Source of the DNA: Mobula hypostoma
Lineage: Eukaryota
Direction: 5' to 3'
Assembly: GCF_963921235.1 (NCBI RefSeq)
Contig: NC_086097.1
Coordinates: 24,306,001 to 24,370,000, forward strand
Length of the DNA stretch: 64,000 bases
The number at the start of each line of letters is the position of its first letter. Position 1 is the stretch's first letter. Of the stretch, positions 6,138 through 64,000 are shown one piece after another. A program made the translations under genes and the position numbers. A model generated the notes under the pieces. The model made no database searches. It had not been told where the DNA came from and saw nothing but the letters and a program-made list of their open reading frames with translations.

Positions 6138-6258
6138 ACACATAAAAGTTGCTGGTGAACACAGCAGTCCAGGCAGCATCTGTAGGAAGAGGTACAGTCA
6201 ACGTTTCGGGCCGAGACCCTTCGTCAGGACTAACTGAAAGAAGAGATAGTAAGAGATT
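6138..6258 (-). mobile_element. Short Penelope pseudo-LTR element with hammerhead motif and 15-bp TSD
   Basis: Flanked by TCCTCTTCTCTCAAC at 6123-6137 and 6259-6273; close reverse-complement match to the copy at ~12535-12660. Confidence 0.85.
6195..6232 (-). ncRNA. Minimal type-I hammerhead ribozyme motif
   Basis: Reverse complement reads UAGUC CUGACGA A GGGU CUCG GCCC GAAA CG UU GACUG: intact core, stems I and II, GUU cleavage triplet. Confidence 0.75.
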
Positions 6259-7159
6259 TCCTCTTCTCTCAACTCTCTTCATTTATCCTCCCACACTTCC
6301 CGTCTCACACACCGAGCATGCTGTTGTAATGCATGAATAGTCGACTTACTGTCGACTTCCTGCCAGCTTGAACTAGTCTGGCTATTCTCCTCTGACCTCT
6401 TTCATGAGCAAGATGTCATGCAGAGCTAACTAAATTAATGGCACATAACTAAACTGATACCTTCTTCCTGAACATGGATCACATCCACAGTAGCACAGCG
6501 ATTAGTGCAACACTACTATAGTGTCAGTGATCTGCGTTCAAATCCACCACTGTCTGGAAGGAGTTTGAATATTCTCCCCATGGCCATGTGGGCTTTTACC
6601 TTACATGTCTAATGGCAAGCTTCTGTCCTGAATTTTTATGAAGCCATTGCTAGGATAGTAACCAGGCATGAGTTTACTATCGTTCACTTTGGCCTAGAGT
6701 TTGTGAACCTGTTACATACCTTCTCGTCTGGTATCAACCTTGGAGGGTCTACTTTATCTCACCACTACATGCTCAACCTCCCATCTCACTCTGTTGTGCT
6801 ACAGAGCCAAGAATTCACGATTACCCACCATTAATTACCATCCTCTACTACACTTACGCTTGGAATGATCTGTCTGGTGGAACACCAGAGCAAAAGCTTT
6901 TGACTGTCTCTGTGTACATGTGACAATAGCAAACCATTAAACCCATCTTTCTCCACTTCAACCCCAGCTTCCTGATCTGATACCTGTCAGATATTGTATG
7001 AAGACATCCCTGTGAAGAACTTGGGGCTTTGTTTATAAAGTCTATTTATGAATATTAAGAATATATTGTTATTGTTAATATAAGACATTAATTGGTAATT
7101 ATGTTTGCAGTTGATAAAATTCCACCCTTCCCAGAACATTGTTCATTTGTTATATCCCA

Positions 7160-7466
7160 TGTCGTGTGGAATGGGTGATCATGGTCTTTCCGTGACCGTG
7201 ATTGTTCGTAGTAAATTACCTTCTTCTGGGCAGTGTATTTACAAGATGGGTGACCCCGGCCTTTATCAATACTCTTTGGAGATTGTCTGCCTGGTGTTAG
7301 TTGTCGCATAAGCAGGACTTGTGATAAGCACCGGTTGCTTATTCGATCATCTCCCATGGCTTCACGTGATGCTGATCTGGGGGTGGAGTGGGCTAAGCGT
7401 GTGCTTCACCTGCAGGCTAGTGGAGGGAAGGAGCGCCTTACACCTCCCTTGGTAGAGACGTATCTT
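7160..7466 (-). mobile_element. Non-autonomous short interspersed element, probably RTE-derived
   Basis: Its left end (CATGGTCTTTCCGTGACCGTGATTGTTC) recurs at ~24629-24660; no coding capacity; family assignment is inference. Confidence 0.4.
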
Positions 7467-7676
7467 CACCGCCCAGCATCAGAACATAATGGTACAATTC
7501 TACGTTGCAAACATATGGAGCATCCTTACATCAGCCGTTACAATCTGTTTGGCTCAAAGGTTCATTTATTATCAAAGTATACAACTCTGAAAGTCTTCTT
7601 CTCCAGATAGCCATGAAACCAAGGAACCAAGAAAGGTGCAGCATCCTCTCACAATGTACAAAAGCTACAGCAAACT

Positions 7677-7872
7677 AAGGCAGTGGAGGCCAATTCTCTG
7701 GATGCTTTCAAGAAGGAGCTAGGTAGGTATCTTATGGATAGGGGAATCAAGGGTTATGGGGACAAGGCAGGTACCGGGTATTGATAGTAGATGATCAGCC
7801 ATGATCTCAGAATGGCGGTGCAGGCTCGAAGGGCCGAATGGTCTACTTCTACACCTATTGTCTGTTGTCTAT
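7677..7872 (+). mobile_element. CR1 LINE 3' end
   Basis: GCAGTGGAGGCC..TTCAAGAAGGAGCTAG..CTCGAAGGGCCGAATGG..(TTGTCTA)n tail. Confidence 0.8.
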
Positions 7873-8309
7873 AGGTCAGCAAAAAGGTCATTAGCTGCAT
7901 TCTTCCTTGCAGCTTGACTTGCATTTGTCCAGAACAAAGTAATGGGCAAGAAGAATGGCAGACACTACCCACCCAGCAAACTGCCTTTTCCAAAAGCTCC
8001 CTTCCGGAAAGCGCTATAGGGCTATTAAAACAAAAACTTTGCACCATCTTAAAAAGTTTCTTCCCCAGGCAGTTAATCTGATCAACCGTTCTTGTTAACC
8101 CCCCCCCCCTCTTTTATCTATTACCTCCATCACTGCACTGTACTATAAACACTTCAAACTAGTTTTTATATTTTTATAACACAATGTTACACTGTAAATA
8201 AATGCTGGTATTAACACATATTTTATCCCATATCTGTTCTTCTAATTTTATTTGCATATAAAACTCTAATATATAATGTATTCTCTCTCTCTATTTCAAT
8301 ATATGTATA

Positions 8310-9861
8310 CAGTGGCATGCAAAAGTTTGGGCACCCCTGGTCAAAATTTCTGTTTCTGTGAATAGCCAAGCGAGTAAAAGATGACCTGAATTCCAAAAGG
8401 CATAAGGTTAAAGATGACACCTTTCTTTAATATTTTAAGCAAGATTACTTATTTATTTCCATCTTTTACAGTTTCAAAATAACAAAAAAGGAAAAAGGCC
8501 CAAAACAAAAGTTTGGGCACCCTGCATGGTCAGTACTTAGTAACACCCCCCTTGGCAAGTATCACAGCTTGTGAACACTTTTTGTAGCCAGCTAAGAGTC
8601 TTTCAATTCTTGTTTGGGGGATTTTCGCCCATTCTTCCTTGAAAAAGGCTTCTAGTTCTGTGAGATTCTTGGGCAGTCTTGCATGCACTGCTCTTTTGAG
8701 GTCTATCCACAGATTTTCGATGATGTTTAGGTCGGGGGACTGTGAAGGCCATGGCAAAACCTTCATCTTGCACCTCTTGAGGTAGTCCATTGTGGATTTT
8801 GAGGTGTGTTTAGGATCATTATCCTGTTGTAGAAGCCATCCTCTTTTCATCTTCAGCATTTTTACAGACGGTGTGATGTTTGCTTCCAGAATCTGCTGGT
8901 ATTTAATTGAATTCATTCTTCCCTCTACCAGTCAAATGTTCCCTGTGCCACTGTCTGCAAAACAAACCCAAAGCATGATCGATCCACCCCCATGCTTAAC
9001 AGCTGGAGAAGTGTTCTCTTCATGAAATTCTGCACCTTTTTTTCTCCAAACATACCTTTGCTCATTGTGGCCAAAAAGTTCTATTCTAACTTCATCAGTC
9101 CACAGGACTTGTTTCCAAAATGCATCAGGCTTGTTAAGACGTTCCTTTGCAAACCTCTGACGCTGAATTTTGTGGTGAGGACACAGGAAAGGTTTTCTTC
9201 TGATGACTCTTTCATAAAGGTCATATTTGTGCAGGTGTCGCTGCACAGTAGAACAGTGCACCACTACTCCAGAGTCTGCTAAATCTTCCTGAAGGTCTTT
9301 TACAGTCAAGCGGGGGTTTTGATTTGCCTTTTTAGCAATCCTACGAGCAGTTCTCTCGGAAAGTTTTCTTGGTCTTCCAGACCTCAACTTGACTTCCACT
9401 GTTCCTGTTAACTGCCATTTCTTAATTACATTACGAACTGAGGAAACGGCTACCTGAAAACGCTTTGCTACCTTCTTATAGCCTTCTCCTGCTTTGTAGG
9501 CATCAATTATTTTAATTTTCAGGGCGCTAGGCAGCTGCTTCAGGAGCTCAAGGCTGCTGATTGTTGCGACAAGGTTTGAGGAGTCAGGGTATTTATAAAG
9601 CTTTGAAATTTGCATAACCTGGCCTTTCCTAATGATGATTGTGAATAAGCCATAGCCTTAACAAGCTAATTAAGGTCTGAGACCTTGGTAAAAGTTAAAA
9701 ATTGTACAAAACCAAAATAATACACTAATTTTGCTTAAAGTGTTGAAAAGAATGTTTCATCTTTAACTTTGACTTTTGGAGATCAGTTCATCTTCTACTC
9801 ACTTAACTATTCGCAGTAACAGAAATTTTGACCAGGGGTGCCCAAACTTTGCTTGCCACTG
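8310..9861 (-). mobile_element. Tc1-family (IR/DR type) DNA transposon, near full length
   Basis: TIRs CAGTGGCATGCAAAAGTTTGGGCACCCCTGGTCAAAATTTCTGTT at 8310 and the inverted copy ending at 9861; TA on both flanks; inner direct repeat AAAAGTTTGGGCACCC at ~8507. Confidence 0.95.
8530..9543 (-). pseudogene. Tc1 DD34E transposase with one stop and one frameshift
   Basis: GRPRK linker, LWTDE, QQDNDPKH, WPSQSPDLNIIENLW with 34 residues between the second D and E; ORFs 8932-9615 and 8530-8916 are separated by TGA and a frameshift. Confidence 0.93.
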
Positions 9862-11467: not shown

Positions 11468-11740
11468 AAAACTGATCCTTGACTGTCTTGCAGCAACCCG
11501 TCAATGTGCTGATGCCCATGCTGTGAGTCAGAGGGCCGTGAGACAGAATCCTGTAGAACTGAGTGCTATTTTTCAGTTGTAGTGTTAAACCTTCCAGTCC
11601 TTATTCTTGTCTGCACTCTTAACTTTACAGTCACCTCACAATTTACCTTGATATGTTCTTGCATTTTGTTAAGGTCTGTCCGCACTGTACTTTCTCTTTA
11701 GCTGCTGCACTTTATTTTCTACCCATCCTAGCTTTATGGC

Positions 11741-12469: not shown

Positions 12470-12873
12470 CTACATTCCCTCCCCCTCCTGTCTTCTCCTA
12501 TCAGTTTGGATCTCCCCCTCCCCCTCCCACTTTCAAATCTCTTACTAACTCTTCCTTTAGTTAGTCCTGACGAAGGGTCTCGGCCTGAAACGTCGACTGT
12601 ACCTCTTCCTAGAGATGCTGCCTGGCCTGCTGCGTTCACCAGCGACTTTGATGTGTGTTGCTCCACCAATCACCTGCCCGCTTGTACTCCTTCCCCTCCC
12701 TACCATCTTATTCTGTATTCTTCCCCCTTCCTTTCCAGTCCTGAGGAAGGGTCTCGGCCCAAAACATCACCCGCTTGTTCCTTTCGATAGATGCTGCCTG
12801 ACCCACTCAGTTCCTTCAGCATTTTGTGTGTACGCCGCTCTGGATTTCCAGCATCTACAGAATCTCTTGTGTT
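12470..12873 (+). mobile_element. Two tandem Penelope pseudo-LTR units, each with a hammerhead motif
   Basis: Pyrimidine-rich leader + CTGACGAAGGGTCTCGGCCTGAAACGTCGAC (12567) and a second leader + CTGAGGAAGGGTCTCGGCCCAAAAC (12741), each followed by the AGATGCTGCCTG..CAGC..TGTGTG tail. Confidence 0.8.
12562..12599 (+). ncRNA. Minimal type-I hammerhead ribozyme motif (core intact, GUC triplet)
   Basis: UAGUC CUGACGA A GGGU CUCG GCCU GAAA CG UC GACUG. Confidence 0.78.
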
Positions 12874-13740: not shown

Positions 13741-13774
13741 CTCCAAGAAACAGGGACACCTCATTGGAATATCA

Positions 13775-13991
13775 TAAACGCCAGAGATTCTGCAGATGCT
13801 GGAAAACTTGAGCAACACACACAAAATGCTGGAGGAACTCAGCAGGCCAGGCTGCATCTGTGGAGGGGAATAAACCGTGGACATTTTGTGCCGAGACCCT
13901 TCATTAGGACACGGCCTGAAACGTCGACTGTGTATTCCCTCCATAGATACTACCTTACCTGCTGAGTTCCTGCAGCATTTTGTATGTTGTT
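13775..13991. mobile_element. Inverted-pair (palindromic) Penelope pseudo-LTR element
   Basis: CACAAAATGCTGGAGGAACTCAGCAGG arm and reverse-complement arm CCTGCTGAGTTCCTGCAGCATTTTGTATG; hammerhead remnants at the centre. Confidence 0.8.
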
Positions 13992-14649
13992 CGAAGGATT
14001 ATCAGGTTGGTGAAGTCCGAAGACTGGGGGAAACATGACCGTGAAGAGATTTGAAAAGCAAGGAGTATTTTTAATTTCTTAATTGCTTCACTAGAAGCCA
14101 ACAGGCACAGAGGAGGTGGGGGAGCCAAACCTATGTGTGAGGGCATGAGCAGCAATGCCGGGCGTAGATATAAAATAGGTTAATAAAATAAGAACATATT
14201 TTCCCATTATCCAGTCACAGAGAATCCGGATGGGACTTGGCCCGAAGAATGCTCTTTGAGAAATGAGAATTCTCATCCCAGGCATCAGCTGTCCTAGATT
14301 CCTCCAGCTTCGCGTGTGAGCTTCGGTAGAAAGTAGGAAGGAAATGTTAGCAGCAGAGGAATCATATTCCCTGGTGCCTGCTAAGCTGGCTGAACTCATT
14401 CAGTGGGTCAGTGGAGGCCTGCAATTGGCCTTTACGTCTTCCACACTTGCTGGGAGAAAGGAGACAATGCTGTGGATAAAGTAATTGAAGAGACTACCCT
14501 TCCCCCGCTACCCATCCTCCTTAAAGCAAACCTACAGATGCAAAACCAGACAGGACGAGCACAGTGTCCTTGGCAATAGTGTAATTCTAGTCTCTGTATC
14601 AATGAATTAAGCTTCATCTGAAAGAGGATACCATCACTTAACCACAGCA

Positions 14650-17179: not shown

Positions 17180-17181
17180 TG

Positions 17182-17239
<58 letters not shown>

Positions 17240-17405
17240 GAGTGTGGAAGTGTGTGTACACGTTTGTGTACTCATGAATCTGGGTATGTGTGTGTAGGTT
17301 GTGTGTGCGCATGTGCATATGTGTGTTTGTGTGTATTAGTGTACGTGTGCATGTTTGTGTCTGTGAAAGAAAGAGAATGAGAGTGAGAAGAGTATGTGAG
17401 TGCAA
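17180..17405. repeat. (TG)n microsatellite, degenerate toward the right
   Basis: Direct reading. Confidence 0.9.
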
Positions 17406-17795
17406 ATGTATGGGAAGAGGGATGTTAACAGGGTCATATTATTAACAAAGCTTGACACAAATCCTCTGAGAGCTGTGTATTTCTCTTACTGTCCATCCTT
17501 CTCATTGTTCGGCTTTGAATGTAACAACTCCACCATTGTCAAGCAGTGGATTTGATTCAAGGTAATAGACAGGAATTCACGGGGAAGGTTTGGACCATCT
17601 TATCAACAAGACAGTTATCAAATTATTATCACATCATGAAGCTAGAATGAGACAAAAGCCAGGTTTAAATTGCAGAGAGAAAGGAACATTTATTTCATGC
17701 AGGTGAACTCCCCACCCAGCTTTGCCATTATGAAATCCATGCAGCATCAACATTCTGAGGGTCACCACTGACCAGAAACCCAACCAAACTAGCTA

Positions 17796-18188
17796 CATTA
17801 ATGCTAGAGGAACTCGGCACCTCAGACAGCATCTATGGAGGAAAATGGACAGTCCACGTTTCAGGCTGAGACTGGAAAGGAAGGGGTCAGAAACCAGAAT
17901 AAGAAGATGGGGAAGGGAGAGGATAAGCTTCACATGCCAGCTTGTTCTCCTCCTCTCCCTCTTCCACTTATCACTTCCCAGCTTCTCACTTCGTACCCCC
18001 ATCCCTCACCCATCCACCTTCCCCCTCCCCTCACCATGCTTATGCCTCCTTCTTTTACAGTCCTGATGAAGGGTCTCGGTCCAAAACATTGACTGTTTAT
18101 TCCTGTCCATAGTTGCTGTCTGACTTGCTGAGTTCCTCCAGCATTGTCTGTATTGTTCAAGAGTTCCAGCATCTGCAGAATCTTTTGT
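17796..18188. mobile_element. Inverted-pair Penelope pseudo-LTR element with decayed hammerhead (18058-18095)
   Basis: CAGTCCTGATGAAGGGTCTCGGTCCAAAACATTGACTG; inverted arm at 17800-17930. Confidence 0.8.
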
Positions 18189-18281: not shown

Positions 18282-20696
18282 ACATTACAAGTATAACATA
18301 GCAAAGACGAGTGGGAAGCCGGAGGATTGAGAAACTTTTAAAGAGCAACAGAAGATAACTAAAAAGGCAATACACGGAGAAAAAATGAGGTAGGAAGGTA
18401 AACTAGCCAAGAATATAAAGGAGGATAGTAAAAGCTTCTTTAGGTATGTGAAAAGGAAAAAAATAGTTAAGACCAAAACTGAGCCCTTGAAGACAGAAGC
18501 GGATGAATTTATTATGGGGAGCAAGGAAATGGCAGACGAGTTGAATAGGTACTTTGGATCTGTCTTCACTAGGGAAGACCCAAGCAATCTCCCAGATGTA
18601 ATAGTGGCCAAAGGACCTAGGGTAATGGATGAATTGAAGGAAATTTATATTAGGCAGGAAATGGTGTTGGATAGGCTGTTGGGTCTGAAGGCTGATAAGC
18701 TCCCGGGATCTGATGGTCTGCATCCCAGCGTAGTAAGGAGGTGGCTTTAGAAATTGTGGACGCATTGGTAATCATTTTCCAATGTTCTATAGATTCAGGA
18801 TCAGTTCCTGTGGATTGGAGGGTGGCTAATGTTGTCCCTCTCTTCAAGAAGGGAGGAAGAGAGAAAACAGGGAATTATACACCGGTTAGCCTGACGTCGG
18901 TGGTGGGAAACATAGAAAATAGGTGCAGGAGTAGGCCATTCGGCCCTTCGAGCCTGCACCGCCATTTATTATGATCATGGCTGATCATCCAACTCAGAAC
19001 CCCGCCCCAGCCTTCCCTCCATACCCCCTGACCCCCGTAGCCACAAGGGCCATATCTAACTCCCTCTTAAATATAGCCAATGGACTGGCCTCAACAGTTT
19101 CGTGTGGCAGAGAATTCCACAGATTCACCACTCTCTGTGTGAAGAAGTTTTTCCTCATCTCGGTCCTAAAAGGCTTCCCCTCTATCCTCAAACTGTGACC
19201 CCTCATTCTGGACTTCCCCAACATCGGGAACAATCTTCCTGCATCTAGCCTGTCCAATCCTTTTAGGATCTTATACGTTTCAATCAGATCTCCCCTCAAT
19301 CTTCTAAATTCCAACGAGTACAAGCCCAGTTCACCCAGTCTTTCTTCATATGAAAGTCCTGCCATCCCAGGAATCAATCTGGTGAACCTTCTTTGTACTC
19401 CCTCTATGGCAAAGATGTCTTTCCTCAGATTAGGGGACCAAAACTGCACACAATACTCCAAGTGTGGTCTCACCAAGGCCTTGTACAACTGCAGTAGTAC
19501 CTCCCTGCTCCTGTACTCGAATCCTCTCGCTATAAATGCCAGCATACCATTCGCCTTTTTCACCGCCTGCTGTACCTGCATGCCCACTTTCAATGACTGG
19601 TGTATAATGACACCCAGGTCTCGTTGCACCTCCCCTTTTCCTAATCGGCCACCATTCAGATAATAATCTGTTTTCCTATTTTTGCCACCAAAGTGGATAA
19701 CTTCACATTTATCCACATTAAATTGCATCTGCCATGAATTTGCCCACTCACCCAACCTATCCAAGTCACCCTGCATCCTCTTAGCATCCTCCTCACTGCT
19801 AACACTGCCACCCAGCTTCGTGTCATCCGCAAACTTGGAGGTGCTGCATTTAATTCCCTCATCCAAGTCATTAATATATATTGTAAACAACTGGGGTCCC
19901 AGCACTGAGCCTTGCGGTACCCCACTAGTCACCCTGAAAGATGCTGGAGTCAATTATAAAAGATGAAATTACGACACATCTGGATAGCAGTAACAGGATT
20001 GGTCCGAGTCAGCATGGATTTACGAAGGGGAAATCATGCTTGACTAATCTTCTGGAATTTTTTGAGGATGTAACTATGAAAATGGACAAGGGAGAGCCAG
20101 TGGATGTAGTGTACCTGGACTTTCAGAAAGCCTTTGATAAAGTCCCATATAGGAGATTAGTGGGCAAAATTAGGGCACATGGTATTGGGGGCAGAGTACT
20201 GACATGGATTGAAAATTGGCTGGCTGACAGAAAACAAAGAGTAGCGATTAACGGGTCCCTTTCGGAATGGCAGGCGGTGACCAATGGGGTAGCGCAGGGT
20301 TCAGTGCTGGGACCGCAGCTGTTTACAATATATATTAATGATTTAGATGAGGGAATTAAAAGTAACATTAGCAAATTTGCTGATGACACAAAGCTGGGTG
20401 GCAGTGTGAAACGTGAGGAGGATGTTATGAGAATGCAGGGTGACTTGGACAGGTTGGGTGAGTAGGCAGATACATGGCAGAAGCAGTTTAATGTGGATAA
20501 ATATGAGGTTATCCACTTTGGTGGTAAGAACGGGAAGGCAGATTATTATCTAAATGGAGTCAAGTTAGGAAAAGGGGAAGCACAATGAGATCTAGGTGTT
20601 CTTGTGCATCAGTCACTGAAAGCAAGCATGCAAGTACAGCAGGCAGTGAAGAAAGCTAATGGCATGCTGGCCTTCATAACAAGGGGAATTGAGTAT
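18282..20696 (+). mobile_element. CR1 LINE ORF2 fragment (host), interrupted at 18910/19936
   Basis: ORFs 18448-18750, 18741-18910 (VPVDWRVANVVPLFKKG..NYTPVSLTSVVG) and 19941-20465 (QHGFTKGKSCLTNL..YLDFQKAFDKV..QGSVLGP..FADD) are colinear across the insert. Confidence 0.92.
18911..19935 (-). mobile_element. Young CR1 LINE nested antisense inside another CR1
   Basis: Uninterrupted ORF 18994-19953(-) GVPQGSVLGP..FADD..RPHLEYC..LWNSLP; CATAGAAA tail; GAAA repeated at 18907-10 and 19936-39. Confidence 0.95.
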
Positions 20697-20922
20697 TCCA
20701 ATAATACTACCAATAATTCTAATAATACTACCAATCTGCATATCTTTGTGGGAGAAAACCGGGACACCCAGGGGAACCTATGTGGTCACAAGGAGAACGT
20801 GCAAGCTCCACAAAGACAGCACCCGAGGTCAAGAGTGAATCAAAGTCTCTGGCACTACGAGGCATATTCAGATTCAGATTCATGTACTTATCACATGTAT
20901 TTTGAAACATACAGTGAAATGT

Positions 20923-27780: not shown

Positions 27781-28011
27781 GAAACACAAGGAAGTCTGCA
27801 GACCCTGCAAATCCAAAGCAATACACACCAAAATGCTGGAGGAACTCAACAGGTCAGGCTGCACCTATGGAAATGAATAGATAGTCGATGTTTTGGGCTG
27901 AGACCCTTATTCAGGACTGAGAAGGAAGGGTCTCGGCCCAAAATATCACCTGTCTATTCAGTAGATGCTGTCTGACCTGCTGAGTTCCTCCAACATTTAT
28001 TGTGTGTTGTT
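27781..28011. mobile_element. Inverted-pair Penelope pseudo-LTR element
   Basis: AAAATGCTGGAGGAACTCAACAGGTCAGG arm versus CTGACCTGCTGAGTTCCTCCAACATTT arm; decayed hammerheads on both strands. Confidence 0.8.
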
Positions 28012-28944
28012 TTAGGCTATAACTGTCCTTGTTTTTTGGTCGGACTTGGGATCTGGGAGTTGCTAGCAAGTCCAGTGTTGACTCCACATTCCACATGGCA
28101 CCAGAATATCTGGCAGCAGTTGTGGGCTGCCTCCAGCATATCCTTGGGTTTTGTTGGTTGTTAACTTATATGACCCATTTCACTGTATGTTTTGATATAC
28201 ACGTGATAACTAAATTATTCTGAATCTCTTCAATTCTTCAGCTTCTCCTTTTCTTGGCGGGTGAGAGCAGCTCACAATATCTCTCATGGGTAGGCAGAAG
28301 GCATGAAATTATATTGAACGTTGGCCTATAAAATCTACCAATTCTTTTTTTTCCATATATATTCAATTACCACTCTTTCCCACTACTTACAGAAAGCTTT
28401 TAGACACTCACCATGCATGGAAGCAAAATAGTGAAATAAGCCTTTTGTTCTATTCAGTATACCATGGGGAGGCTAACGTTACTTCACAGTATCTCCAACA
28501 ACTCATTAAATCTGATGTATAACTCTCACGAGATGTCTAGCATTCATCCACAATGTTAAAAGGTTTGACATTTCTCTAGCGTTCTTCCGTGTTACTCACT
28601 TCACACAGTCAATAACCAAACTTGCCTTTTATTCCTCAGTTTCAACAGCTGTTTTGTGTAGCACGTTTATCAAGGTCAGATTGCGTGTAGCTCCTCTCTC
28701 ATTCCAGTAAAGGCTTTCTCTTAAGCGGACAATGTAAGGGGCCTGCCTCTGCTCTGCGGCTCAGTAGGAAACCTTCCTGTTGCTGAGTCACAAATACCTG
28801 AGTTCAGGTCTAATTCCAGAGACTTCAGAACAAAGTCGAGGTTGGTGCACGAGCAATGCTGGTTATCAGCAGCCCCATTGCATGGATGGTGCATTGAAGG
28901 GAGGGCCTCTGCACTTCCAGATGGATGTAATCAATAAGCATGTG

Positions 28945-29285
28945 GATTTTGCAGGTGCCCGGAATCCAGATCAACACACACAAAATACTGGAGGAACTCA
29001 GCAGGCGAGACAGCATCTATAGAAAGAATAGATAGTCAATGCTTCAGGCCAAGACCCTTCTTCAGGACTAAGAAGGAAGAGGAAGATTCCAGAATTCCTT
29101 CTTCTCCAGCCCTTGACCTTTCCCACCCACCTGGTTTCACCTTCCAAGTAGCCTCCTTCCCCTCCCCTTCCACTTTTCATTCTGACCTCTTCTGTCCTCC
29201 TTGTCAGTCATGAAGAAGGGTCTCGGCCTGAAACGTCGACTGTGTATTCATTTCCAGGCCCGCTCAGTTCCTCCAGCATTTTTTG
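28945..29285. mobile_element. Inverted-pair Penelope pseudo-LTR element; hammerhead at 29205-29242 with C3>A change
   Basis: CAGTCATGAAGAAGGGTCTCGGCCTGAAACGTCGACTG. Confidence 0.8.
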
Positions 29286-29378
29286 GACATAAATAATGTC
29301 CACTTTGCTGCTAACTGACACAGTGGCACAGCTGGTGAGGCTACAGCCTTGTAGCTCCAGTGACCCAGTCTGATCCTG

Positions 29379-31524: not shown

Positions 31525-32090
31525 AAGAGAGACAGACAAACAGACAGACAGACATACAGACCGATAGTTAGGTAGAGAATGAGAGACAGAGATAAAGACA
31601 GGGATGGATAGATAGAGAGAGTCAACAAAGAGAAACAAAGACAGAGAGACAGACTGAAAGAGCGAGAGAGAGAGAGACAGAGAGAGAGAAATCGGTAGAG
31701 GCAAAAGACAGAACCAGAGAGAGAGAGAGAGAGAGAGAGTTTGGCAGATACAAAGACAGAGAGAGAGAGAGAAAGAGAGAGAGAGACAAAGACAGACAGA
31801 CAGGCAGAGAAGGATAGACAGAGAGATTGGTAAATACAAAGACAGAGAGAGAGAGAGAGACAAGGAGACAGGCAGAGGAAGACAGACCGAGAGAGATAGA
31901 CAGACAAGCAGAGAAGGATAGAGAGAGAGATTGGCAGATACAAAGACAGAGAGAGAGGGAGAGAGACACAGAGAGGTAGGCAGAGAGACAGAGAGAAGGA
32001 GAGGCAGAGAAGGACAGAGAGGGAGAGAGAGATTGGCAGAGACAAAGTCAGGGAGAAAAGGACAGACAGACAGAAACAGAGAGAGACCGC
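31525..32090. repeat. Compound (AG)n/(AGAC)n purine-rich repeat with higher-order units
   Basis: GAGAGAGATTGGCAGATACAAAGACAGAGAG unit recurs about 4 times. Confidence 0.9.
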
Positions 32091-36096: not shown

Positions 36097-37147
36097 CATA
36101 TACACCTCTACTACAACCCCTGGTAGCACATTCCAGGTACTCACCACTCTCTGTGTAAAAAAATTGCTCTCTATATCTCTTTTGAAATTACTTGTCATCT
36201 TAAATGGATAAGGAGGAATTTCTTTTGCTGGAGTGTGTGAGTCTGTGAAATTCATTGCCACAGATGTCTGTGGAGGCCAAGTCTTCGGGTATATTTTGGG
36301 CAGAGGTTAATACATTCTTGATTAGTAAGGCGGTCAAAGGTTATGGGGTAAAGATCAGAGAACAAATTCCGCAACATAAATCAATGATATTAAATCTGAT
36401 TCAGATTTTGATTCTGGATTGAATATCAGCTGTGATTGAATGGCAGAGCAGAATTGATGGACTGAATGGCCTAATTCTGCTTGTCAGGCTTACGGTCAAG
36501 ACATGGAGTCCAGCCACCTGCATTAAGCCAAAGCTGCCAAAGCCGCCAAAGCCCTCTGCCCACCTCTCTGAGGTCCTACAGCCTCAGCTGGAACACAGTC
36601 TGAAACTGGTAGGGTCAAGACTGGATCTCCTCTCCACGGTGAATCCCTCTGCCAGCTGCAGGCTTCACCTGTCATTACTTGGTAACTGATCCCAGCCAGT
36701 GGATGGTGGTGATTTACCCTTTGAAATCTATGGCAGCCCTCAGCCATCAGAGCACAGGCATCAGAAGACTTGGTGCCCTGCACCACAAGTAAAACATAGG
36801 GATTGCAACAGTGGCTGGCCACGTCAGCCCACAACCCACACAGTGGACTCCAGTCTTGAGAGAAGTATCTCGAGTGGCGTCATCACCATTCACCCTGCCT
36901 CTCAGTGCTGAGTGGATCACGACCTTCAGGTACAGCGATTACTGCATTTTTTAAAGCCCCCAGGAGTGGGTTGACCGTGTGCTCGGAATCTCCTTCAGAT
37001 TTCAGCCCCAGCCCATCATCCGAATTACTCGCTTGGATTATGTTCAATTTACCCACTCTCCAAGTGGAAATTCCCAGTGGCCTTGGATAATGTTCAATTT
37101 ACCCGGATCCCCAAACAATTTACCCGCTCCCCATGTGGAAATTCGCA

Positions 37148-37702
37148 GTGGCCAAACATCTTAATTCTGATTCCAGTTCGCTTTCCGATATGTCAGTCTA
37201 TGGCCTCTTCCTGTGCCACAATGAAGCTGCCCTCAGGATGGAGGAGCAACACCTTTAATTCCATTTGTGTAGCCTCTAGCTTGATGGCATGAATATTGAC
37301 TTCTCCCTGTATTAAAAAGAAATTCCTTTCACCTCCCCTATCTTTTTTCCCCTACTCTGGCCTCTTAACTTTTCTCACCTGCCTATCACCTCTTTCTGGA
37401 TTGCCTCTTCCTTCCCTTTCTCCTATGGTCCACTCTCCTGTTCTAAGGGGGTCCTTCCTCTCCAGCCCTTTACGTTCCCCCATCACCTGGCTTCACCTAT
37501 CACCACCTCGCTATTCTCCTTCTCTTCCCCCACCTTTTTATTCTGTGGTCTTCCTCCTTCCTTTCCAGTTCTGAAGAAGAGTCTTGGCCCAAAATGTCAA
37601 CTGTTTATTTCTCTCCATAAATTCTGCCTAATCTGCTGAGTCCCTCCAGAATTTTGCATGTGTCACTTTTGATTTCCAGCATCTGCAGAATCTCTTGTGT
37701 TT
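37148..37702 (+). mobile_element. Penelope-like element 3' end: GIY-YIG endonuclease C-terminus plus pseudo-LTR with decayed hammerhead
   Basis: 37148-37306 translates VAKHLNSDSSSLSDMSVYGLFLCHNEAALRMEEQHL*FHLCSL*LDGMNIDFS; then a pyrimidine leader and CAGTTCTGAAGAAGAGTCTTGGCCCAAAATGTCAACTG (37566-37603). Confidence 0.85.
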
Positions 37703-46180: not shown

Positions 46181-46672
46181 CCCTCTAAAGTTTCCACATC
46201 CTTTCAATGCGGAGACTGGAATTGAACACAGGATTTTGTAATGAGCGGTGATATATTTCTGATTCAGAGTAATGTGTGACTTGGAAGGGGAGTAGGTGCT
46301 GCCCCAAACCTTCTAGTTGGCAGAGGTCGTGCATTTGGAATGAATATTTTTATATTTTGTTTTTCGTGAGTTGCATAATGTCTGAATGGCAGTGGAGGCA
46401 CGAGGGACTGTGAATGCTGTAATCTAGGCTAAATAGCTGGAGGAACTCAGCCAATCAGGCAGCATCTGTGGAGGCAGAGGAACAGCCAACATTTCAGGCT
46501 GAGACCCTGACACGAGACTCTGAACATTGACCCAAGTGATCCCTCTTCGACTACAGATGCTGCCTGCTTCGTTGAGTTTTTCCTACAGTTTGACTTTTTT
46601 TTTGCATATGAACATCAATATCTTGTTTGAGGAATTATCTAAGTTTCATATTATTTATTTGAAGATACTGTA

Positions 46673-48010: not shown

Positions 48011-48162
48011 ACAGCCATGTGTCCCTAGATATGAAGGTAAAGAAGCAGGAATCTCTCTCTCTCTATAACCTAGGTACATTCTACGCTGAGGTCTTTGTAA
48101 ACTCACCTAAACGTACTTGAGGCTTGATTAGTCAAGTTCCTTTAAATATCTGAAGAAAGATT

Positions 48163-48787
48163 AACACACACCAAATGCTGGAGGGATTCAGCAGATCTGG
48201 CAACATTTACGGAAAGGAGCAAAGTGACGGCATTTCGGGCTGAGGCCCTCCATCAAGACTGGAAAGGAAGGGGGAAGATGCCAGATTGAAAAAGTGGGTG
48301 GGAGGGGTGAGGAGAAGGAGTACATGCTGACAAATGATAGATTAGGCCACGTGAGGGAAAATGTCGGTGGGTGGGGAGGCTGGATGAAGTGGGAAGCTGG
48401 GAGGTGATAGCCGGAAAAAGAAGGAATCTGATAGGAAAGGAGAGTGGACCATGGGAGAAAGGGAAGGAGAAGGAAGGTATAGACAGGTGAGGAGAAGACT
48501 GGAGGTAGAGGGTGCCAGAATAGAAAATGGAAAAGGGGAGAAGAGGGAGTGGGGAAAAATTACCAAAAGACAGAGAAATTGATGTTCATGCTGTCAGGTT
48601 GGAGGTTACCCAGACAGAGTATGAGGTGTTGCTCTTCCAGCCTAAGAGTGGCCTCATCGTGGTGGGGGGTGTGGGGGAGGTGGAGAGGAATCCGTGGAGC
48701 ACATCCACATATCGGAATGGGACTGGGGATCAGAATTGAAAGGGCTGGCCATCAGGAAATCCTGCTTGTTGTGGACGCAGTGAAGGT
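48163..48787 (-). mobile_element. Penelope-like element 3' end (GIY-YIG C-terminus plus pseudo-LTR)
   Basis: Reverse translation LHCVHNKQDFLMASPFNSDPQSHSDM..HDEATLRLEEQHLILCLGNLQPDSMNINFSVFW*; decayed hammerhead at ~48225-48262. Confidence 0.85.
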
Positions 48788-50335
48788 ACAAAGGAACAAA
48801 GGTAATGAAAGGTTTCCCTGTTGATATAATTCCAAACATAAAGAGCAATGTAACTTCTTTCAGCTTATGGGAGATGTTGTGATTTATTTCCATTAATTAT
48901 AACCCATTCATTTTCAATTTTTAAGCTCCTGCTTACATCATTCACTCTGTGGTAGGAATGTCGCCAGTAAGCCTAACTCATTGTATTGCTGAGTTTAAAA
49001 TTCCACAATATAATCCAGATTGTCAGACATTTCACAGTGGCTTTAAAGACAATCATTTCTCTTCTTTATGGCACTCCTAATAATATCATATGCAATATAG
49101 ACAGTTTTCCCGATCTATCTGTCTGGTGATGGGATCAATTAATAGCAGTGGAAAGGTCATTCCATGAAACAAACGGTTTCTTTCCCCCTTGGGAAATTTA
49201 ACCTGATCTGAACAGAATCTCCAGTGTGCATGGGTAATATGTATCGACTGAAGTTGCTGGTTCAATTTCCCTCTGCTCAAGAGTTTATAACCTCGGTTAT
49301 TTCACTATGGGTGAACTGTAAGCAAGAAAATTTGCACTTCTAAAGTTTAATGCATAAAATTGTTTCAAGTTAGAGACACTCAGAAGTCCAGAGCTCTGTG
49401 AAGCTATAGATAGACAGGTCAAAGACCGAATTCGACGAGTCTGAAGGTTGAGGGAGAGAGTGAGCCAGAGACCGGAGGTTGGAAGCTCAATGTTTGCAAG
49501 TGTGGGAGTCCAGTCCAGAGACAAGAGCTTGGAGGCCTGTTGCCTGCAAGTTTAAGAGTACAGGACCAAGCACCAGAAGTCCAGAGTTGGTCTGTCCTTG
49601 GGTCGGAGTCCTAGATGTGTGAGGGGGTGAGAAGGGTGGGAAAGGGGCTTGCTTTGCTGTTGTTATCCCAGTTTGTCCTGCAGTTGCTGCTGTTTGTGGT
49701 GTTCTGTGGAGTGTACTGTGTTGTGCTCCTGAAGGAGGGTCTCAGATCAAAATGTCAACTGTTCATTCCCCTCTATAGATGCTGCCTGACTTGCTGCAGA
49801 ATCACTTGTCCTTGTGCTGCATTAAGCATTGTGTGCATGCTATATTGGTGCCAGTATGGGCAGCAACTCTTCTGGGCTGCCCCCAGCACATCCTCAGCTG
49901 TGCTAGTTGTTAATGCAAGTGATGCTTTTCACTGTAAATGTGATAATAAATCTGAATCTGAATATGAGAGAATTCAGAGGATGGGAATCTGGAGCAACAC
50001 ACAAAAAGAGGTGGAGGTACTTGGCGGGTCAGGCAACATCTGTGAAGGGAATTAGACGGTTGCCGTTTTGGGTTGAGACCCTTCATCTGGATGGGAAAAA
50101 ATGATGGGAGATAGGCAGAATCAAAATGATCAAGTTTAAGTTCAGTTTACTGTCATTCGACTGTACGCATGTATACCACCAAATGAAGCAATATTCCTCT
50201 GGACCAGGGTTACAACACAGTGCAAGTAACTCACACACACAGCTCAAAGTAATATTACCACAGATAATTTAACAAATAATAGGGTGCATTTACAGCACAA
50301 GTTAAAAAGCAAACAGTATAACTGGCACTTCATTT

Positions 50336-55527: not shown

Positions 55528-55711
55528 ATACAGGAGATTCTGCAGATGCTGGAGATCCAGAGTAGCACGCACAAAATACTGGAGGAAATCAGCAGGTCAA
55601 GCAGTATCTATGGATGTAGAGAAGTCCTGATGAAGGGTTTCAGACCAAAAGATCATTCCTTTCCATAGATGCTGACTGTCTTGCTGAGCACCTCCAGTTT
55701 TTTGTGTGTTA
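55528..55711. mobile_element. Inverted-pair Penelope pseudo-LTR element
   Basis: Same arms as 13775; AGTCCTGATGAAGGGTTTCAGACC hammerhead remnant at ~55623. Confidence 0.75.
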
Positions 55712-60822: not shown

Positions 60823-61089
60823 AGCAATAACTATTGTAAATATCGAGAACATGAGATGAAGTGTCTTTTAAGGTGAGTCATAGGTTTTGGGATCACTTCA
60901 GTGATGGGGCAACTGAAGTTGAGTGAAGGTTGAAGAGCCTGATGGTTGAGGGGTAGTAACTGTTCCTGGACCTGGTGGTGCGAGTCCTGAGGTTCCTGTA
61001 CCTTCTTCATGATCGCAGCAGCAAAGAGAGAGCATGTCCTAGGTGGTGGAAGTCCCTGACAATGTTGTGGCTGTCCTGTGACATATCAA

Positions 61090-62565
61090 CGGCATGTGTC
61101 GTGAAATTTGTTAACATAGCAGCAGCAGTCCAATGCAATATATAACATAGAAGAAGAAGAAGGAAGTAATAATAATAATAAAAAAAAGAAGTAAATCAAT
61201 TACCGTATATATATATTGAATAGATTGAAAACCATGCAAAAACCAGTATAAATATATATTAAAAAGTTAGGTAGTATTCTTGGATTCAATGTCCATTTAG
61301 GAAGTGGATGGCAGAGAGGAAGAAGTTGTTCCTGAATCGCTGAGTGTGTGCCTTCAGGCTTCTGTACCTCCTACCTGATGGTAACAGTGAGAAAAGGGCA
61401 TGCCCTGGGTGCTGGAGGTCCTTAATAATTGACACTGCCTTTCTGAGACACCACTCCTTGAAGGTATCCTTGGCTTACAGTGCACCTTTGCTGATAGAGA
61501 TTGTGGAGGAGATGTTTTTGCCAATATAAACTTACTGGCATCTGCAAGTGAGGAAATCCAGGATCCATTTGCACAGGATGTTGAACCCAAGGTCTTGAAG
61601 CTTATTGAGTAGTTTTGGGTGGCGGGGGGGTGATCGCATTAAATGCCAAACTGTATTCAATGAACAGCATCTTTATATATGCATCTTTGCTGTCCAGATG
61701 TTCCAGGGTTAAGTGAAGAGTCTATGAAATAGCATCTGCTGTGGACCTGTCGTGCTGGTAGGCAAATTGGAGCGGATCCAAGTCACCTGTCAGGCAATAG
61801 TTGATATGTTTCAACACCAACCTCTCAAAGTACTTACCAAAGTGGATGTAAGTGCTACTAGATGATAGTCACTGAGGGTGGTTACCATGTTCTTCTTTGG
61901 CACTGGTTTAAATGAAGCCTGCTTGAAGCAGCTGGGTACCTCAGACTGCCAAAATAAGAGCTTAAAGATATCAGTTAACCCTCCAGCTAGTTGCTCAGCA
62001 TGGGTTTTTATTACTCAGCCTGGTACCCCTTCAGGGCCAGATGCTTTCATGGATTCACCTTCTGGAAGGATGCTCTCACGTTGCCTCAGAGACTATAATC
62101 ACGGTCATCGGGGCCTATGGGAATTCGCAAAGGTGTCTCCATGTGTTGATGATCAAAGTGAACATGAGAGGCATTGAGCTCATCTGGGCGTGAAGCCTTG
62201 CTGTCACCAATGTCACATGGTTTCACTTCATAGGAGGTGATAGTGTCCAAGCCCTGCCACAGCTGTTGAGCATCTTTCAGTGATTCAAGTTTGGCCCGGA
62301 ATTGCCACTCTGCACGTGAGATGGCTTTCCGGAGACCGTAGCTGGATTTCACTTGGTCACCAGGCCTGAGTGCCACTGCTCTGGCCCTCAGCAGATTGCA
62401 GATCTCATGGTTCATCCAGGGTTTCTGGCCGAGGAGGACACTGAATGATATCATGGGGGCACACTCATCCACGACTGTTTTAATAAAGTCCATGACAATC
62501 GTGGTGTGTGCATTCAGATCTTCTGACAAATCCTTGAACACAGTCCAGTCCACCGACTCAAAGCA
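61090..62565 (-). mobile_element. Rex1/Babar LINE fragments (two pieces)
   Basis: ORF 62086-62553(-) DWTVF..FIKTVVDEC..QKPWMN..LWQGL.TITSY..PDELN; 61090-61465 matches 38730-39100. Confidence 0.8.
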
Positions 62566-63589
62566 ACCCCAGTGCCTAGGAAGATCCTTGTCATGTCAGT
62601 GTTAATAAACCTGATTCTGATGCTGACTTTGAATCTGAATGTAGTAAGAGATTAAGATACAGTCGCAGAACTCAAACAGAAGAGATACTATTAAGGACAT
62701 TCTGTTCTTCTCTCAGATTGAGCTGTTCTGGAGGGAAGGTGACAAAATGAAGGAGATTCACATGAAGGATGGTGCGGATGGAGGAAGGGGATGAGTCGAT
62801 AGAGAGTAAGGGTGAGGAGAGAGGGATTCAAATAAGAGGAATGATAACTTCATTTAAGAAAATTCAATGATATCAAAATAACATGTTCAAACTGCTAAAA
62901 TTAATTTTCCAACAGATTACTGAGGCAGCATATACCAGTATAAATTCCATCTCACATTTCTTCTGATTATCTGGTCCAGTGGGTCTGTAATAATCCAGCT
63001 GTATTCGAGTCACTGTTTGGAGTTTACAGAAAACACAAACCAAATGTCTGCAGTAATAACCTCAGCTTTGATCACTGTCAAAATGTTGTCAAGTGACCCT
63101 CCCGAGAGTTTTCCATGGAGCTAATCATCTAGCTATCACTGCGATGCCACTCTCTCTCCCGCCAATGCTTCCGTGACCCAAAGGACCTTCAGATGGTTAC
63201 GAGCAGATGCACTAAAGCATAACCTGTGTGGGTTGTTTTCCTGGAGCAACAGCAAAACTGGGAGCGGGGCTGAGGAAAATGTTAGGGTCAGAATTTGCAG
63301 GGCCACTGAATGCAGAGGTCATAGGCCTCTGGTTAGTTGGGTGATTTCTGGGCAGTTTCAGTGGCCCTCTGTAGCCCTGCTCCACCATGCGGTATTCAAT
63401 GTGTGACTGAAACCCATGACCTACCATTCTTCTATATAGTGAAAAATTCAGTTGACAAAAACCTGTGCACCACAGATTTAAAATTGGAAGTTTGACTCAA
63501 TATCAATTTTCATAGTCATTCTGCACAGAAACAGATGCACCTACTGAGGAAGGGTATCAAAGCTCATAGTGTGATCTTGGCCAGTTGGG

Positions 63590-63800
63590 AAAATGAGCTG
63601 AAAAATGGCAGACAGAATTTAATGCAGACAATTGTGAGATGTTGCGCTTTGGGAGGACAAACCTGGGTAAGACTTGTTCAGTGAATGGTAGCGCTCTGAG
63701 GTGTGCAGTAGAGGAAAGGAACCTGGGAATTCAGATCCATAATTCCTTGTAAGTGCCATCACAGATAGATAGGGTTGTAAAGAGAGTTTTCATCACATTG
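63590..63800 (+). mobile_element. CR1 RT fragment
   Basis: WQTEFNADNCEMLRFGRTN..VNG..EERNLGIQIHNSL. Confidence 0.7.
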
Positions 63801-64000
63801 AATACTGGAGGAACTCAGCAGGTCAGGCAGCATCCAAGGCGAGGAATAAACAGTCCATATTTCAGTCTGAGACCATCCATCATCAGTCCTGATGAAGGAT
63901 CTCAGTCTGAAACGTTGACTGTTTATACTTCTCTATCGATTCCGCCCGACCTGCTGAGTTCCTCCAGCATTTTGTGTGTGTTACTGTGGATTCCCAGAAT
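63801..64000. mobile_element. Inverted-pair Penelope pseudo-LTR element, runs off the window
   Basis: AATACTGGAGGAACTCAGCAGGTCAGG arm versus CCGACCTGCTGAGTTCCTCCAGCATTTTG arm. Confidence 0.8.
63884..63921 (+). ncRNA. Minimal type-I hammerhead ribozyme motif (core intact, GUU triplet)
   Basis: CAGUC CUGAUGA A GGAU CUCA GUCU GAAA CG UU GACUG. Confidence 0.7.

What the first reader, a model, noticed from the sequence alone, without database searches (positions are those of the whole stretch)
6138..63921. Dispersed family of hammerhead-ribozyme-bearing short Penelope-derived elements
Seen: about 15 related short elements (e.g. 6195, 12562, 12736, 13880-13930, 18058, 27880-27950, 29205, 37566, 48230, 49730, 55623, 63884) share CAGTC-CTGANGA-A-GGGT CTCG GCCC-GAAA-CG-TC-GACTG. 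Established: CUGANGA, GAAA and UH form the hammerhead catalytic core, and Penelope-like retroelements carry minimal type-I hammerheads in their pseudo-LTRs with a very short palindromic stem III. Here stem I is CAGUC/GACUG, stem II is GGGU/GCCC with one extra A after A9, and stem III is the palindrome ACGU. Inference: roughly one copy per 4-5 kb would mean a very high-copy, SINE-like ribozyme family in this genome, possibly uncharacterised in this lineage.
Basis: partly seen in the sequence, partly recalled or inferred. Interest (0 to 1): 0.85.

Follow-up and report, generated by a model that had tools for sequence, protein, structure and literature searches.

The report
Penelope retroelement tails with hammerhead motif
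The repeated motif is the known minimal hammerhead ribozyme carried near the 3' end of a Penelope-like jumping gene that has flooded this vertebrate genome; the window holds only short, mostly decayed end-pieces of it, so the catch is right but the kind is already described.

Summary
The motif is far above chance: 4 matches against 0.04 expected.

They are 3'-terminal pieces, 75 to about 615 nt long, of an autonomous Penelope-like element (PLE). Full copies elsewhere in the genome have a 3.5-kb unit with a reverse transcriptase and a GIY-YIG endonuclease, and sit in tandem (pLTR) arrangements. The hammerhead lies about 330 nt after the endonuclease stop codon and 60 nt before the ATG of the next unit.

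The motif shows most of the published traits of PLE "min-hammerheads" (Cervera and De la Pena 2014). The exception is that the commonest young subfamily has G10.1-U11.1 instead of G-C.

Genome-wide there are at least 276,770 relics and 48,376 core-intact 34-mers, with 0 in reversed-pattern controls. In the window only 3 of 20 arms keep a full core.

Twelve of the 20 arms form head-to-head fold-back pairs. There is no SINE head and no tandem retrozyme array. I found no covariation signal, and insertion 5' ends do not gather at the cleavage site.

The kind is known and this is a new member. Earlier notes of this scan on other pieces of this genome reached the same conclusion.

The parts
6129..6388 (-). 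Young-family PLE 3' fragment (3'UTR, hammerhead, short tail). The hammerhead at 6195-6232 is intact, with the canonical G10.1-C11.1 pair and H17 = U.
   Evidence: nhmmer E 1.5e-55, profile positions 110-327. It is 89% identical to the young unit. It passes the strict descriptor and matches the pattern.
12476..12662 (+). Young-family PLE 3' fragment. The hammerhead at 12562-12599 has a complete core but a G10.1-U11.1 pair.
   Evidence: nhmmer E 7.8e-67. It is 90% identical to the young unit. Core 11/11, helix I 4/5, helix II 4/4.
12737..12871 (+). Old-family fragment with the long tail, directly downstream of the young insertion. Its hammerhead is dead (G12 to A, helix III CG to CA).
   Evidence: nhmmer E 2.4e-15, profile positions 225-355; core table.
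13783..13995 (.). Head-to-head inverted pair: minus arm 13783-13910 and plus arm 13907-13995, tails pointing outward. Both hammerheads are decayed or truncated.
17788..18181 (.). Inverted pair with longer arms: minus arm 17788-17872 and plus arm 18053-18181, with CT/GA-rich 3'UTR sequence between them.
   Evidence: The weak miRNA-like Rfam rows at 17869-18015 (far below gathering scores) overlap this CT/GA-rich spacer; whether they reflect the inverted repeat is my inference.
27784..28014 (.). Head-to-head inverted pair: minus arm 27784-27929 and plus arm 27923-28014. G12 is A in both arms.
28941..29285 (.). Head-to-head inverted pair with unequal arms: the minus arm 28941-29082 starts at profile position 210, and the plus arm 29104-29285 starts at position 120.
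37143..37698 (+). Old-family 5'-truncated PLE copy of about 556 nt. It holds the last ~53 codons of the GIY-YIG endonuclease ORF, the 3'UTR, a decayed hammerhead at 37567-37604 and the long tail.
   Evidence: blastn to the endonuclease region of the young unit, 76% over 163 nt; tblastn with the endonuclease protein, E 5e-12; nhmmer.
46432..46508 (-). Short decayed fragment (partial hammerhead plus tail).
   Evidence: nhmmer E 1.5e-10; core 8/11.
48159..48773 (-). Old-family 5'-truncated PLE copy of about 615 nt that reaches the endonuclease C-terminus. Its hammerhead is decayed.
   Evidence: tblastn with the endonuclease protein, E 8e-12; blastn 83% over 87 nt; nhmmer 48159-48260.
49727..49797 (+). 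Short decayed fragment.
   Evidence: nhmmer E 7.6e-10; core 9/11.
49983..50091 (-). Short decayed fragment.
   Evidence: nhmmer E 4.9e-09; core 8/11.
55535..55711 (.). Head-to-head inverted pair: minus arm 55535-55613 and plus arm 55623-55711.
63802..63985 (.). Head-to-head inverted pair. The plus arm hammerhead at 63884-63921 keeps a full core, with an A-U pair in helix II and G-U at 10.1-11.1. The minus arm is decayed. As a whole the pair folds as a hairpin of about 80 bp.
   Evidence: RNA fold gives -96.3 kcal/mol, z = -11.5.

Best explanation
The finding is a set of dead 3'-terminal fragments of a Penelope-like retroelement (PLE) family. Shown: the autonomous element has a 3,515-bp unit with a reverse transcriptase and a GIY-YIG endonuclease, and sits in partial tandems whose repeated ends are the pLTRs. 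The minimal type-I hammerhead lies about 330 nt after the endonuclease stop codon, 60 nt before the ATG of the next unit, and about 70-100 nt from the two alternative 3' ends of insertions. Inferred from the PLE literature: reverse transcription is primed on the nicked target, starts at one of two sites in the 3' 'tail', and usually stops early. That leaves copies that all share the tail and the hammerhead but have variable 5' ends. Also inferred: when the enzyme folds back, or both target strands prime, the result is a head-to-head inverted pair with tails outward. In source elements the hammerhead probably works as the published PLE hammerheads are thought to work. It would be a weak ribozyme, dependent on a dimer or on protein, that cuts after GUC/GUU in multimeric or read-through transcripts. 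In the dispersed copies it is a passenger that decays neutrally, mainly at its four CpG sites. Catalysis itself is not shown here.
For: Motif anatomy is shown. The full element is seen in L025-L028: a 933-935-codon open frame with YIDD. In the three copies translated there (L025-L027), the GIY-YIG domain lies in another frame (Pfam PF01541, E 4e-5, above its cut-off). pLTR hits flank the ORF, there is tandem repetition with a 3,515-bp period, and one single copy has an ~11-bp target duplication and a 101-nt terminal redundancy. The closest named RT relatives are shark proteins at 68-72% identity that carry RVT_1 and other domains. Copy numbers fall from the 3' end toward the 5' end. There are at least 276,770 hammerhead relics, 134,393 first-look candidates for the RT C-terminus and 2,539 for the ORF 5' end. 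Public contigs have a summed word depth of about 1e6 over the hammerhead and tail, against about 1e3 over the ORF start. Two window copies reach the endonuclease ORF. Insertions have two 3' ends about 30-35 nt apart. Profile end positions cluster at 322-334 and 347-356, and contigs diverge at L027 2317-2319 and 2353-2358. This matches the PLE 'tail' signature and the two RT start sites reported for the Anolis element (PMC11167929, passages read). The inverted pairs have tails outward in 6 of 6 window cases. Several of 7 young pairs have zero-loop palindromic junctions. The published min-hammerhead traits are an extra base between 9 and 10.1, a palindromic 15.2-16.2 and helix I of 4-5 bp (PMC4209133, parts 1-2 of 4).
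Against: No hammerhead family of Rfam 15 matches, even at E up to 10. This is expected, because the motif has no helix III hairpin. The predicted minimum-energy fold of the monomer is a rod in which G5-G8 pair with 15.2-17, not the hammerhead fold. The commonest core-intact variant has U at 11.1 (40,838 copies against 7,538 with C), so the usually conserved G10.1-C11.1 pair is a wobble. The test for compensatory change in helix II gave no signal beyond its control, with odds ratios of 2.74 and 2.58. Among 30 copies that hold the ORF 5' end, only 1 starts within 10 nt of the predicted cleavage site, and 23 run on upstream of it. The cleaved RNA is therefore not the usual template. No RNA reads were available to show cleavage (contigs only, kind guessed).
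Confidence: 0.85

Rival explanations
1. The copies are a separate non-autonomous, SINE-like or retrozyme-like short element that amplifies on its own, borrowing the PLE enzyme. They would not be mere truncation products.
For: Nearly all window copies are short, and 12 of 14 loci lack any coding remnant. The hammerhead-plus-tail block is about 1000 times deeper than the ORF start in public contigs. Many profile matches begin right at the 5' edge of the hammerhead. A 2026 preprint argues that animal retrozymes are non-autonomous PLE derivatives (10.64898/2026.07.22.740005; abstract, part 1 of Results and passages read).
Against: The short copies align with the 3' end of the autonomous unit, at about 89-90% identity for the two young window copies. 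Lengths in the window range continuously from 75 to about 615 nt, and two copies run into the endonuclease ORF. Old copies that seem to start at the hammerhead edge in fact share diverged CT-rich 3'UTR sequence upstream of it. There is no tRNA-like head and no tandem array of hammerhead units. About 134,000 first-look candidates hold the RT C-terminus.
Confidence: 0.1
2. The hammerhead-like block is kept in source elements for a non-catalytic reason, and self-cleavage is negligible in vivo. It could be part of the RNA structure that the PLE protein binds to start reverse transcription, part of the endonuclease's DNA target, or part of the promoter or 5'UTR of the next unit.
For: The hammerhead and tail form the only stretch that stays recognisable between young and old subfamilies, while the 3'UTR upstream has drifted. 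Insertion 5' ends show no enrichment at the cleavage site. The dominant subfamily has a wobble at 10.1-11.1. The rod fold is favoured thermodynamically. For the Anolis PLE, ribozyme mutants did not affect insertion in vitro and no RNA-seq reads ended at the site (PMC11167929, passages read). Activity in vitro was low in Cervera and De la Pena 2014 (PMC4209133, part 2).
Against: All 11 invariant core bases, H17, the extra base and the palindrome are kept together in 48,376 copies. The same combination recurs in PLEs of distant animals according to PMC4209133. The Anolis motif did cleave when its protein was present, and C3G/G8C compensation restored the activity (PMC11167929, passages read).
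Confidence: 0.3
3. The motif is a chance resemblance in a CT-rich repeat.
For: Rfam does not call it a hammerhead.
Against: Reversed-pattern controls give 0, against 276,770 and 48,376 matches. The strict descriptor gives 11 hits against 0 in 252 kb. The position in PLE terminal repeats is as published.
Confidence: 0.01

Closest known systems
Minimal hammerheads (min-HHR) in the pLTRs of metazoan Penelope-like elements (Cervera and De la Pena 2014, PMC4209133)
   Same: Type-I topology with an open helix I of 4-5 bp. CUGANGA, GAAA and UH core. One unpaired base between A9 and 10.1. No helix III loop, with a palindromic 15.2-16.2 that implies action as a dimer. Located in the PLE terminal repeat. 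Mostly dispersed single motifs from truncated elements. Pairs close together on opposite strands were also noted there.
   Different: Helix II here is 4 bp with a CUCG loop, whereas 6-8 bp is described for Schistosoma and Drosophila. The most abundant young subfamily has U11.1 (G-U) instead of the 'highly conserved' G10.1-C11.1 pair. The copy number here is at least 276,770 relics, against about 9,000 and 4,000 quoted in that paper for Xenopus and coelacanth. That paper reports high motif variability within a genome, whereas here one motif lineage dominates.
Poseidon PLE of Anolis carolinensis (PAc; PMC11167929)
   Same: An endonuclease-bearing PLE with a pLTR-ORF-pLTR layout. Two adjacent start sites of reverse transcription explain an optional ~30-40-nt 'tail'. 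Both DNA strands are cut and extended, which would give inverted copies. Uncleaved RNA is the main template.
   Different: In PAc the ORF begins inside hammerhead helix II and the cut site is 26 nt after the start codon. Here the cut site is 60 nt before the ATG. The clade of the present element was not determined.
Non-LTR retrozymes of animals (PMC7229834, seen in a search listing only; 10.64898/2026.07.22.740005)
   Same: Type-I hammerheads that act as dimers, related to PLE terminal repeats, in animal genomes.
   Different: Retrozymes are short units in tandem arrays that give circular RNAs. No such array lies in the window, and the copies here are truncated ends of an autonomous element.

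Membership tests
PLE min-hammerhead | Invariant core C3 U4 G5 A6 N7 G8 A9 ... G12 A13 A14, A15.1-U16.1, H17 not G | tested here: met
   Three of 20 window arms keep it in full. Genome-wide there are 48,376 exact 34-mers with the full core and 0 in reversed-pattern controls.
PLE min-hammerhead | One unpaired nucleotide between A9 and G10.1 | tested here: met
   There is an A after CUGANGA in both the young and the old family.
PLE min-hammerhead | G10.1-C11.1 pair closing helix II | tested here: inconclusive
   The pair is G-C in 7,538 exact copies and G-U in 40,838. The dominant young subfamily, including the full-length copies L025 and L027, has the wobble.
PLE min-hammerhead | No helix III loop, with palindromic 15.2-16.2 (acts as a dimer) | tested here: met
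   GAAA-CG-UC, so ACGU is self-complementary and has no loop.
PLE min-hammerhead | Located in the terminal repeat (pLTR) of a PLE | tested here: met
   pLTR hits flank the 933-935-codon ORF in L025-L028. In L027 the hammerhead lies at 2224-2251 and 5744-5771.
PLE min-hammerhead | Compensatory changes in helices between families | tested here: inconclusive
   For helix II pair 10.3-11.3 the counts are wild type 110,830, A only 4,045, T only 3,079 and both 308, giving an odds ratio of 2.74. The non-partner control (2,324 and 219) gives 2.58. There is no signal, but these are neutrally decaying copies of one motif lineage.
PLE min-hammerhead | Self-cleavage after H17 | not testable with these tools
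   Only contigs of guessed kind were served. The minimum-energy fold is not the hammerhead.
Rfam hammerhead families | A match to a curated hammerhead covariance model | tested here: not met
   There is no hammerhead row at gathering scores or at E up to 10 in a window that holds intact copies.
Penelope-like element (endonuclease-bearing) | RT together with a C-terminal GIY-YIG endonuclease | tested here: met
   YIDD is present. RVT_1 scores 22.5 bits, below its cut-off of 29.6. Homologues carry PF00078. GIY-YIG scores 24.2 and 23.6 bits, above its cut-off of 22.6. In the three full copies translated there (L025-L027), RT and endonuclease are in different frames; in the truncated copy L011 they are in one frame.
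Penelope-like element (endonuclease-bearing) | Partial tandem or pLTR structure, and inverted 5'-truncated copies | tested here: met
   Self-comparison gives a 3,515-bp period in L026 and L027. Twenty-three of 30 copies that hold the ORF 5' end continue into an upstream partial unit. Inverted pairs are seen.
Penelope-like element (endonuclease-bearing) | Optional 30-40-nt 3' 'tail' (two start sites of reverse transcription) | tested here: met
   Of 25 arms, 11 end at profile positions 322-334, 9 at 347-356 and 5 earlier. Contigs diverge at two places about 35 nt apart.
SINE | A pol III head (tRNA, 5S or 7SL) and a defined unit length | tested here: not met
   ARAGORN finds 0 tRNA-like genes in the window. 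Lengths range from 75 to about 615 nt with variable 5' ends. 5S and 7SL heads were covered only by the Rfam scan, which gave no hit.
Non-LTR retrozyme | Short hammerhead units in head-to-tail tandem arrays | tested here: not met
   None of the 9 Tandem Repeats Finder rows covers a hammerhead copy. The one direct neighbour pair (12476 and 12737) joins copies of different ages.

The most novel reading that the evidence does not exclude
This genome may hold the largest hammerhead repertoire yet counted. There are at least 277,000 relics and about 48,000 core-intact motifs. Extrapolating 25 arms per 104 kb, which is my own estimate, suggests more than half a million. A still-young PLE appears to drive it, since ORF 5' regions are 99-100% alike. 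Its prevailing ribozyme variant has G10.1-U11.1, and its insertions ignore the ribozyme cut site. If the U11.1 form proved inactive while the element kept spreading, that would show the PLE hammerhead is dispensable for transposition in vivo. The frequent zero-loop fold-back junctions lie 0-28 nt upstream of the motif. They might mark a structure-dependent template switch of the PLE enzyme, and they supply thousands of ~80-bp hairpins to host transcripts.
Probability: 0.15. Interest if true: 0.5.

Novelty: new member of a known kind. Interest (0 to 1): 0.25.

Why it matters
It adds a cartilaginous-fish-type genome to the animals in which Penelope-like elements carry minimal hammerheads. The closest named RT relatives are shark proteins. 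It also shows how extreme the amplification can be.

The natural contrast between a canonical C11.1 form and a five-fold more abundant U11.1 form offers a ready-made test. So does the lack of insertion 5' ends at the cut site. Together they bear on an open question in the PLE literature: whether the ribozyme matters for transposition. Beyond that, the finding is ordinary repeat annotation.

Tried and rejected
- **Rfam scans:** Scans at gathering scores and at E up to 10 gave no hammerhead. The other weak rows are far below gathering scores.
- **First fixed-spacing pattern:** It gave 0 matches because the spacing was wrong.
- **First tblastn for PLE coding remnants:** It found nothing in the window. 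This was misleading, because the 935-residue query lacks the endonuclease, which lies in another frame. Repeating with the endonuclease frame found two remnants.
- **Random sampling of the genome:** I obtained 40 kb instead, so the density estimate rests on 104 kb only.
- **Expression and cleavage in vivo:** No RNA holder was listed. All runs were Logan contigs of guessed kind, and laying them showed no places where molecules begin or end.
- **Dimer folding:** ViennaRNA cofold gave an extended duplex, and the double-hammerhead could not be scored as a nested structure.
- **Covariation by genome-wide pattern counts:** No signal beyond the control.
- **Test for 5' ends at the ribozyme site:** Negative.
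- **Other known folds:** The searches found no tRNA heads and no hammerhead-unit tandem arrays.
- **Not attempted:** The clade of the PLE (Poseidon, Neptune and so on) was not determined. No comparison with Dfam or Repbase was possible with these tools.

Full report
**Observation**

A loose hammerhead pattern gives 4 matches in the window against 0.04 expected. The 27-base core with up to 3 mismatches gives 4 against 0.00.

I aligned nine copies, one from the window and eight from perfect-core matches elsewhere in the same genome. An nhmmer profile built from them finds 20 arms in the window.

Four randomly chosen 10-kb stretches of other chromosomes held 5 more arms. Rfam 15 does not report a hammerhead in the window, at gathering scores or at E up to 10.

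**What the copies are**

The perfect-core copies share about 225 nt of CT-rich sequence upstream of the motif and about 70-100 nt downstream. In several loci the similarity runs more than 1.3 kb further upstream.

That upstream sequence encodes a reverse transcriptase with YIDD and a GIY-YIG domain. Pfam GIY-YIG scores 23.6 and 24.2 bits against a cut-off of 22.6. RVT_1 is below its cut-off in my Pfam copy, but homologues carry it.

Four loci with open frames of 933-935 codons show the whole element:
- The unit is 3,515 bp.
- The profile region lies both before and after the ORF.
- Partial or full tandem copies are present (L026, L027).
- One single copy (L025) has a 101-nt terminal redundancy and an ~11-bp target duplication.

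The hammerhead sits about 330 nt after the endonuclease stop codon. Its predicted cut site is 60 nt before the first ATG of the long ORF. This is the pLTR-ORF-pLTR layout of Penelope-like elements. The closest named RT relatives are shark proteins at 68-72% identity.

**The window copies are end-pieces of that element**

My first tblastn found no coding remnant, but its query lacked the endonuclease, which lies in another frame in the full-length copy L027 from which the query came. With the endonuclease frame as query, two old copies reach the last ~50 codons of the endonuclease. These are 37143-37698(+) and 48159-48773(-).

Copy lengths in the window therefore run from about 75 to about 615 nt. 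Two copies (6129-6388 and 12476-12662) are 89-90% identical to the young unit. The rest are 70-83% identical.

Old copies whose profile match seems to begin at the 5' edge of the hammerhead still share diverged CT-rich 3'UTR sequence upstream. That edge is a conservation boundary, not an element boundary.

ARAGORN finds no tRNA-like head. None of the tandem-repeat rows covers a hammerhead copy.

**Three further PLE hallmarks**

- **Two 3' ends.** Of 25 arms, 11 end at profile positions 322-334, 9 at 347-356 and 5 earlier. Public contigs diverge from the element at two places about 35 nt apart. This fits the optional 30-40-nt 'tail' and the two start sites of reverse transcription shown for the Anolis element (PMC11167929, passages read).
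- **Head-to-head inverted pairs.** Twelve of the 20 window arms form 6 pairs, always with tails outward. Seven young pairs fetched from elsewhere have junctions 0-28 nt upstream of the hammerhead, several as perfect zero-loop palindromes. Those seven were noticed because both arms were close, so their junction positions are a biased sample. One window pair folds as a hairpin of about 80 bp (-96.3 kcal/mol, z = -11.5), which would bury the motif.
- **A 3'-to-5' copy-number gradient.** There are at least 276,770 hammerhead relics, 134,393 first-look candidates for the RT C-terminus and 2,539 for the ORF 5' end. The last two are rough figures from the tool.

**The ribozyme motif**

The motif reads as follows:
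- helix I: (C/U)AGUC/GACUG
- core: CUGA-N-GA
- one extra A
- helix II: GGGU/GCCC with a CUCG loop
- GAAA, then CG, then U and H17

These are the traits Cervera and De la Pena list for PLE min-hammerheads (PMC4209133, parts 1-2 of 4 read). The traits are an unpaired base between 9 and 10.1, a palindromic 15.2-16.2, a short open helix I, no helix III loop, a location in the pLTR and action as a dimer.

A strict descriptor gave 11 hits in 252 kb of held sequence and 0 in the reversed control.

Genome-wide, exact 34-mers with a full core number 7,538 with C11.1 and 40,838 with U11.1, and reversed-pattern controls give 0. A 5:1 excess at one CpG while the other three stay intact cannot be random decay. 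The main young subfamily, including the full-length copies L025 and L027, therefore carries G10.1-U11.1.

In the window only 3 of 20 arms keep a full core, and 9 have G12 changed to A, which is CpG decay.

**Tests of function**

All were negative or inconclusive.
- **Covariation.** For helix II pair 10.3-11.3 the compensated double change is 2.74 times commoner than independence predicts. A non-partner control gives 2.58. The excess is no greater than in the control; mixed copy ages could explain it (my inference).
- **5' ends.** Of 30 copies that hold the ORF 5' end, 23 continue upstream of the predicted cut site by 16 to over 1,310 nt, 7 start 7-109 nt after it, and only 1 lies within 10 nt. 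One of the 30 is the query copy itself and two are neighbours in one array.
- **Folding.** The minimum-energy monomer is a rod that pairs G5-G8 with 15.2-17.
- **RNA evidence.** No RNA reads could be had.

These results agree with the literature. Activity in vitro was low (PMC4209133). In Anolis, cleavage was protein-assisted, ribozyme mutants did not affect insertion, and no reads ended at the site (PMC11167929, passages read).

**Comparison and novelty**

The kind is known. Within the kind, four points stand out:
- the scale, at least 276,770 relics against about 9,000 and 4,000 quoted for Xenopus and coelacanth in 2014
- the youth of the family, with ORF 5' regions 99-100% alike
- the prevalence of the U11.1 variant
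- the many fold-back pairs

No paper in the library holds 'hammerhead ribozyme', 'Penelope-like' and 'shark' together beyond one review (seen in a search listing only). One 2026 preprint sampled a single cartilaginous fish, and I did not open its supplements. Earlier notes of this scan on two other pieces of the same genome reached the same conclusion.

**Verdict**

This is a new member of a known kind, of low to moderate interest.

Noticed in passing
L025:4986-5640, L026:5291-5950, L027:4900-5560 (full-length copies elsewhere in the genome): In the three copies with 935-codon open frames that I translated there (L025-L027), the RT frame ends in a proline-rich tail. The GIY-YIG endonuclease continues in another frame, and the shift lies in a C-rich run. 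In the 5'-truncated copy L011 (8362-9012) RT and endonuclease are in one frame. This could be a real subfamily trait, a homopolymer assembly error or recoding; I did not resolve it.
   Followed up: partly
window 12476-12871: A young PLE fragment ends at 12662, only 74 nt upstream of the hammerhead of an old fragment in the same orientation. This fits PLE insertion into earlier PLE sequence, a self-targeting described for the Drosophila endonuclease in PMC11167929.
   Followed up: no
window 8932-9657 (-): An open frame with Tc1/mariner-type transposase DNA-binding domains (HTH_Tnp_Tc3_2, E 2e-19).
   Followed up: no
window 18994-21583 and 29364-30152: Several open frames match RVT_1 (E down to 4e-24) but do not match the PLE protein. 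They are probably LINE remnants, on both strands around 19-21.6 kb.
   Followed up: no
window 31610-32086 and 17180-17257: A long AG-rich compound microsatellite or minisatellite (periods 4 to 104), and a (TG)n run.
   Followed up: no
L027:1950-2750 laid on public contigs: Runs labelled with three different coded organisms (A, B, I) hold 45-80% of the sampled words of the young pLTR and ORF start. Close relatives of this young family therefore appear to occur in more than one species label.
   Followed up: no
L046, L051, L054, L056, L060 (copies that hold the ORF 5' end): In 5 of 30 copies the sequence directly upstream of the homology break is the reverse complement of PLE sequence (hammerhead, tail or endonuclease region). 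Fold-back junctions therefore also occur on long copies, at various positions.
   Followed up: partly
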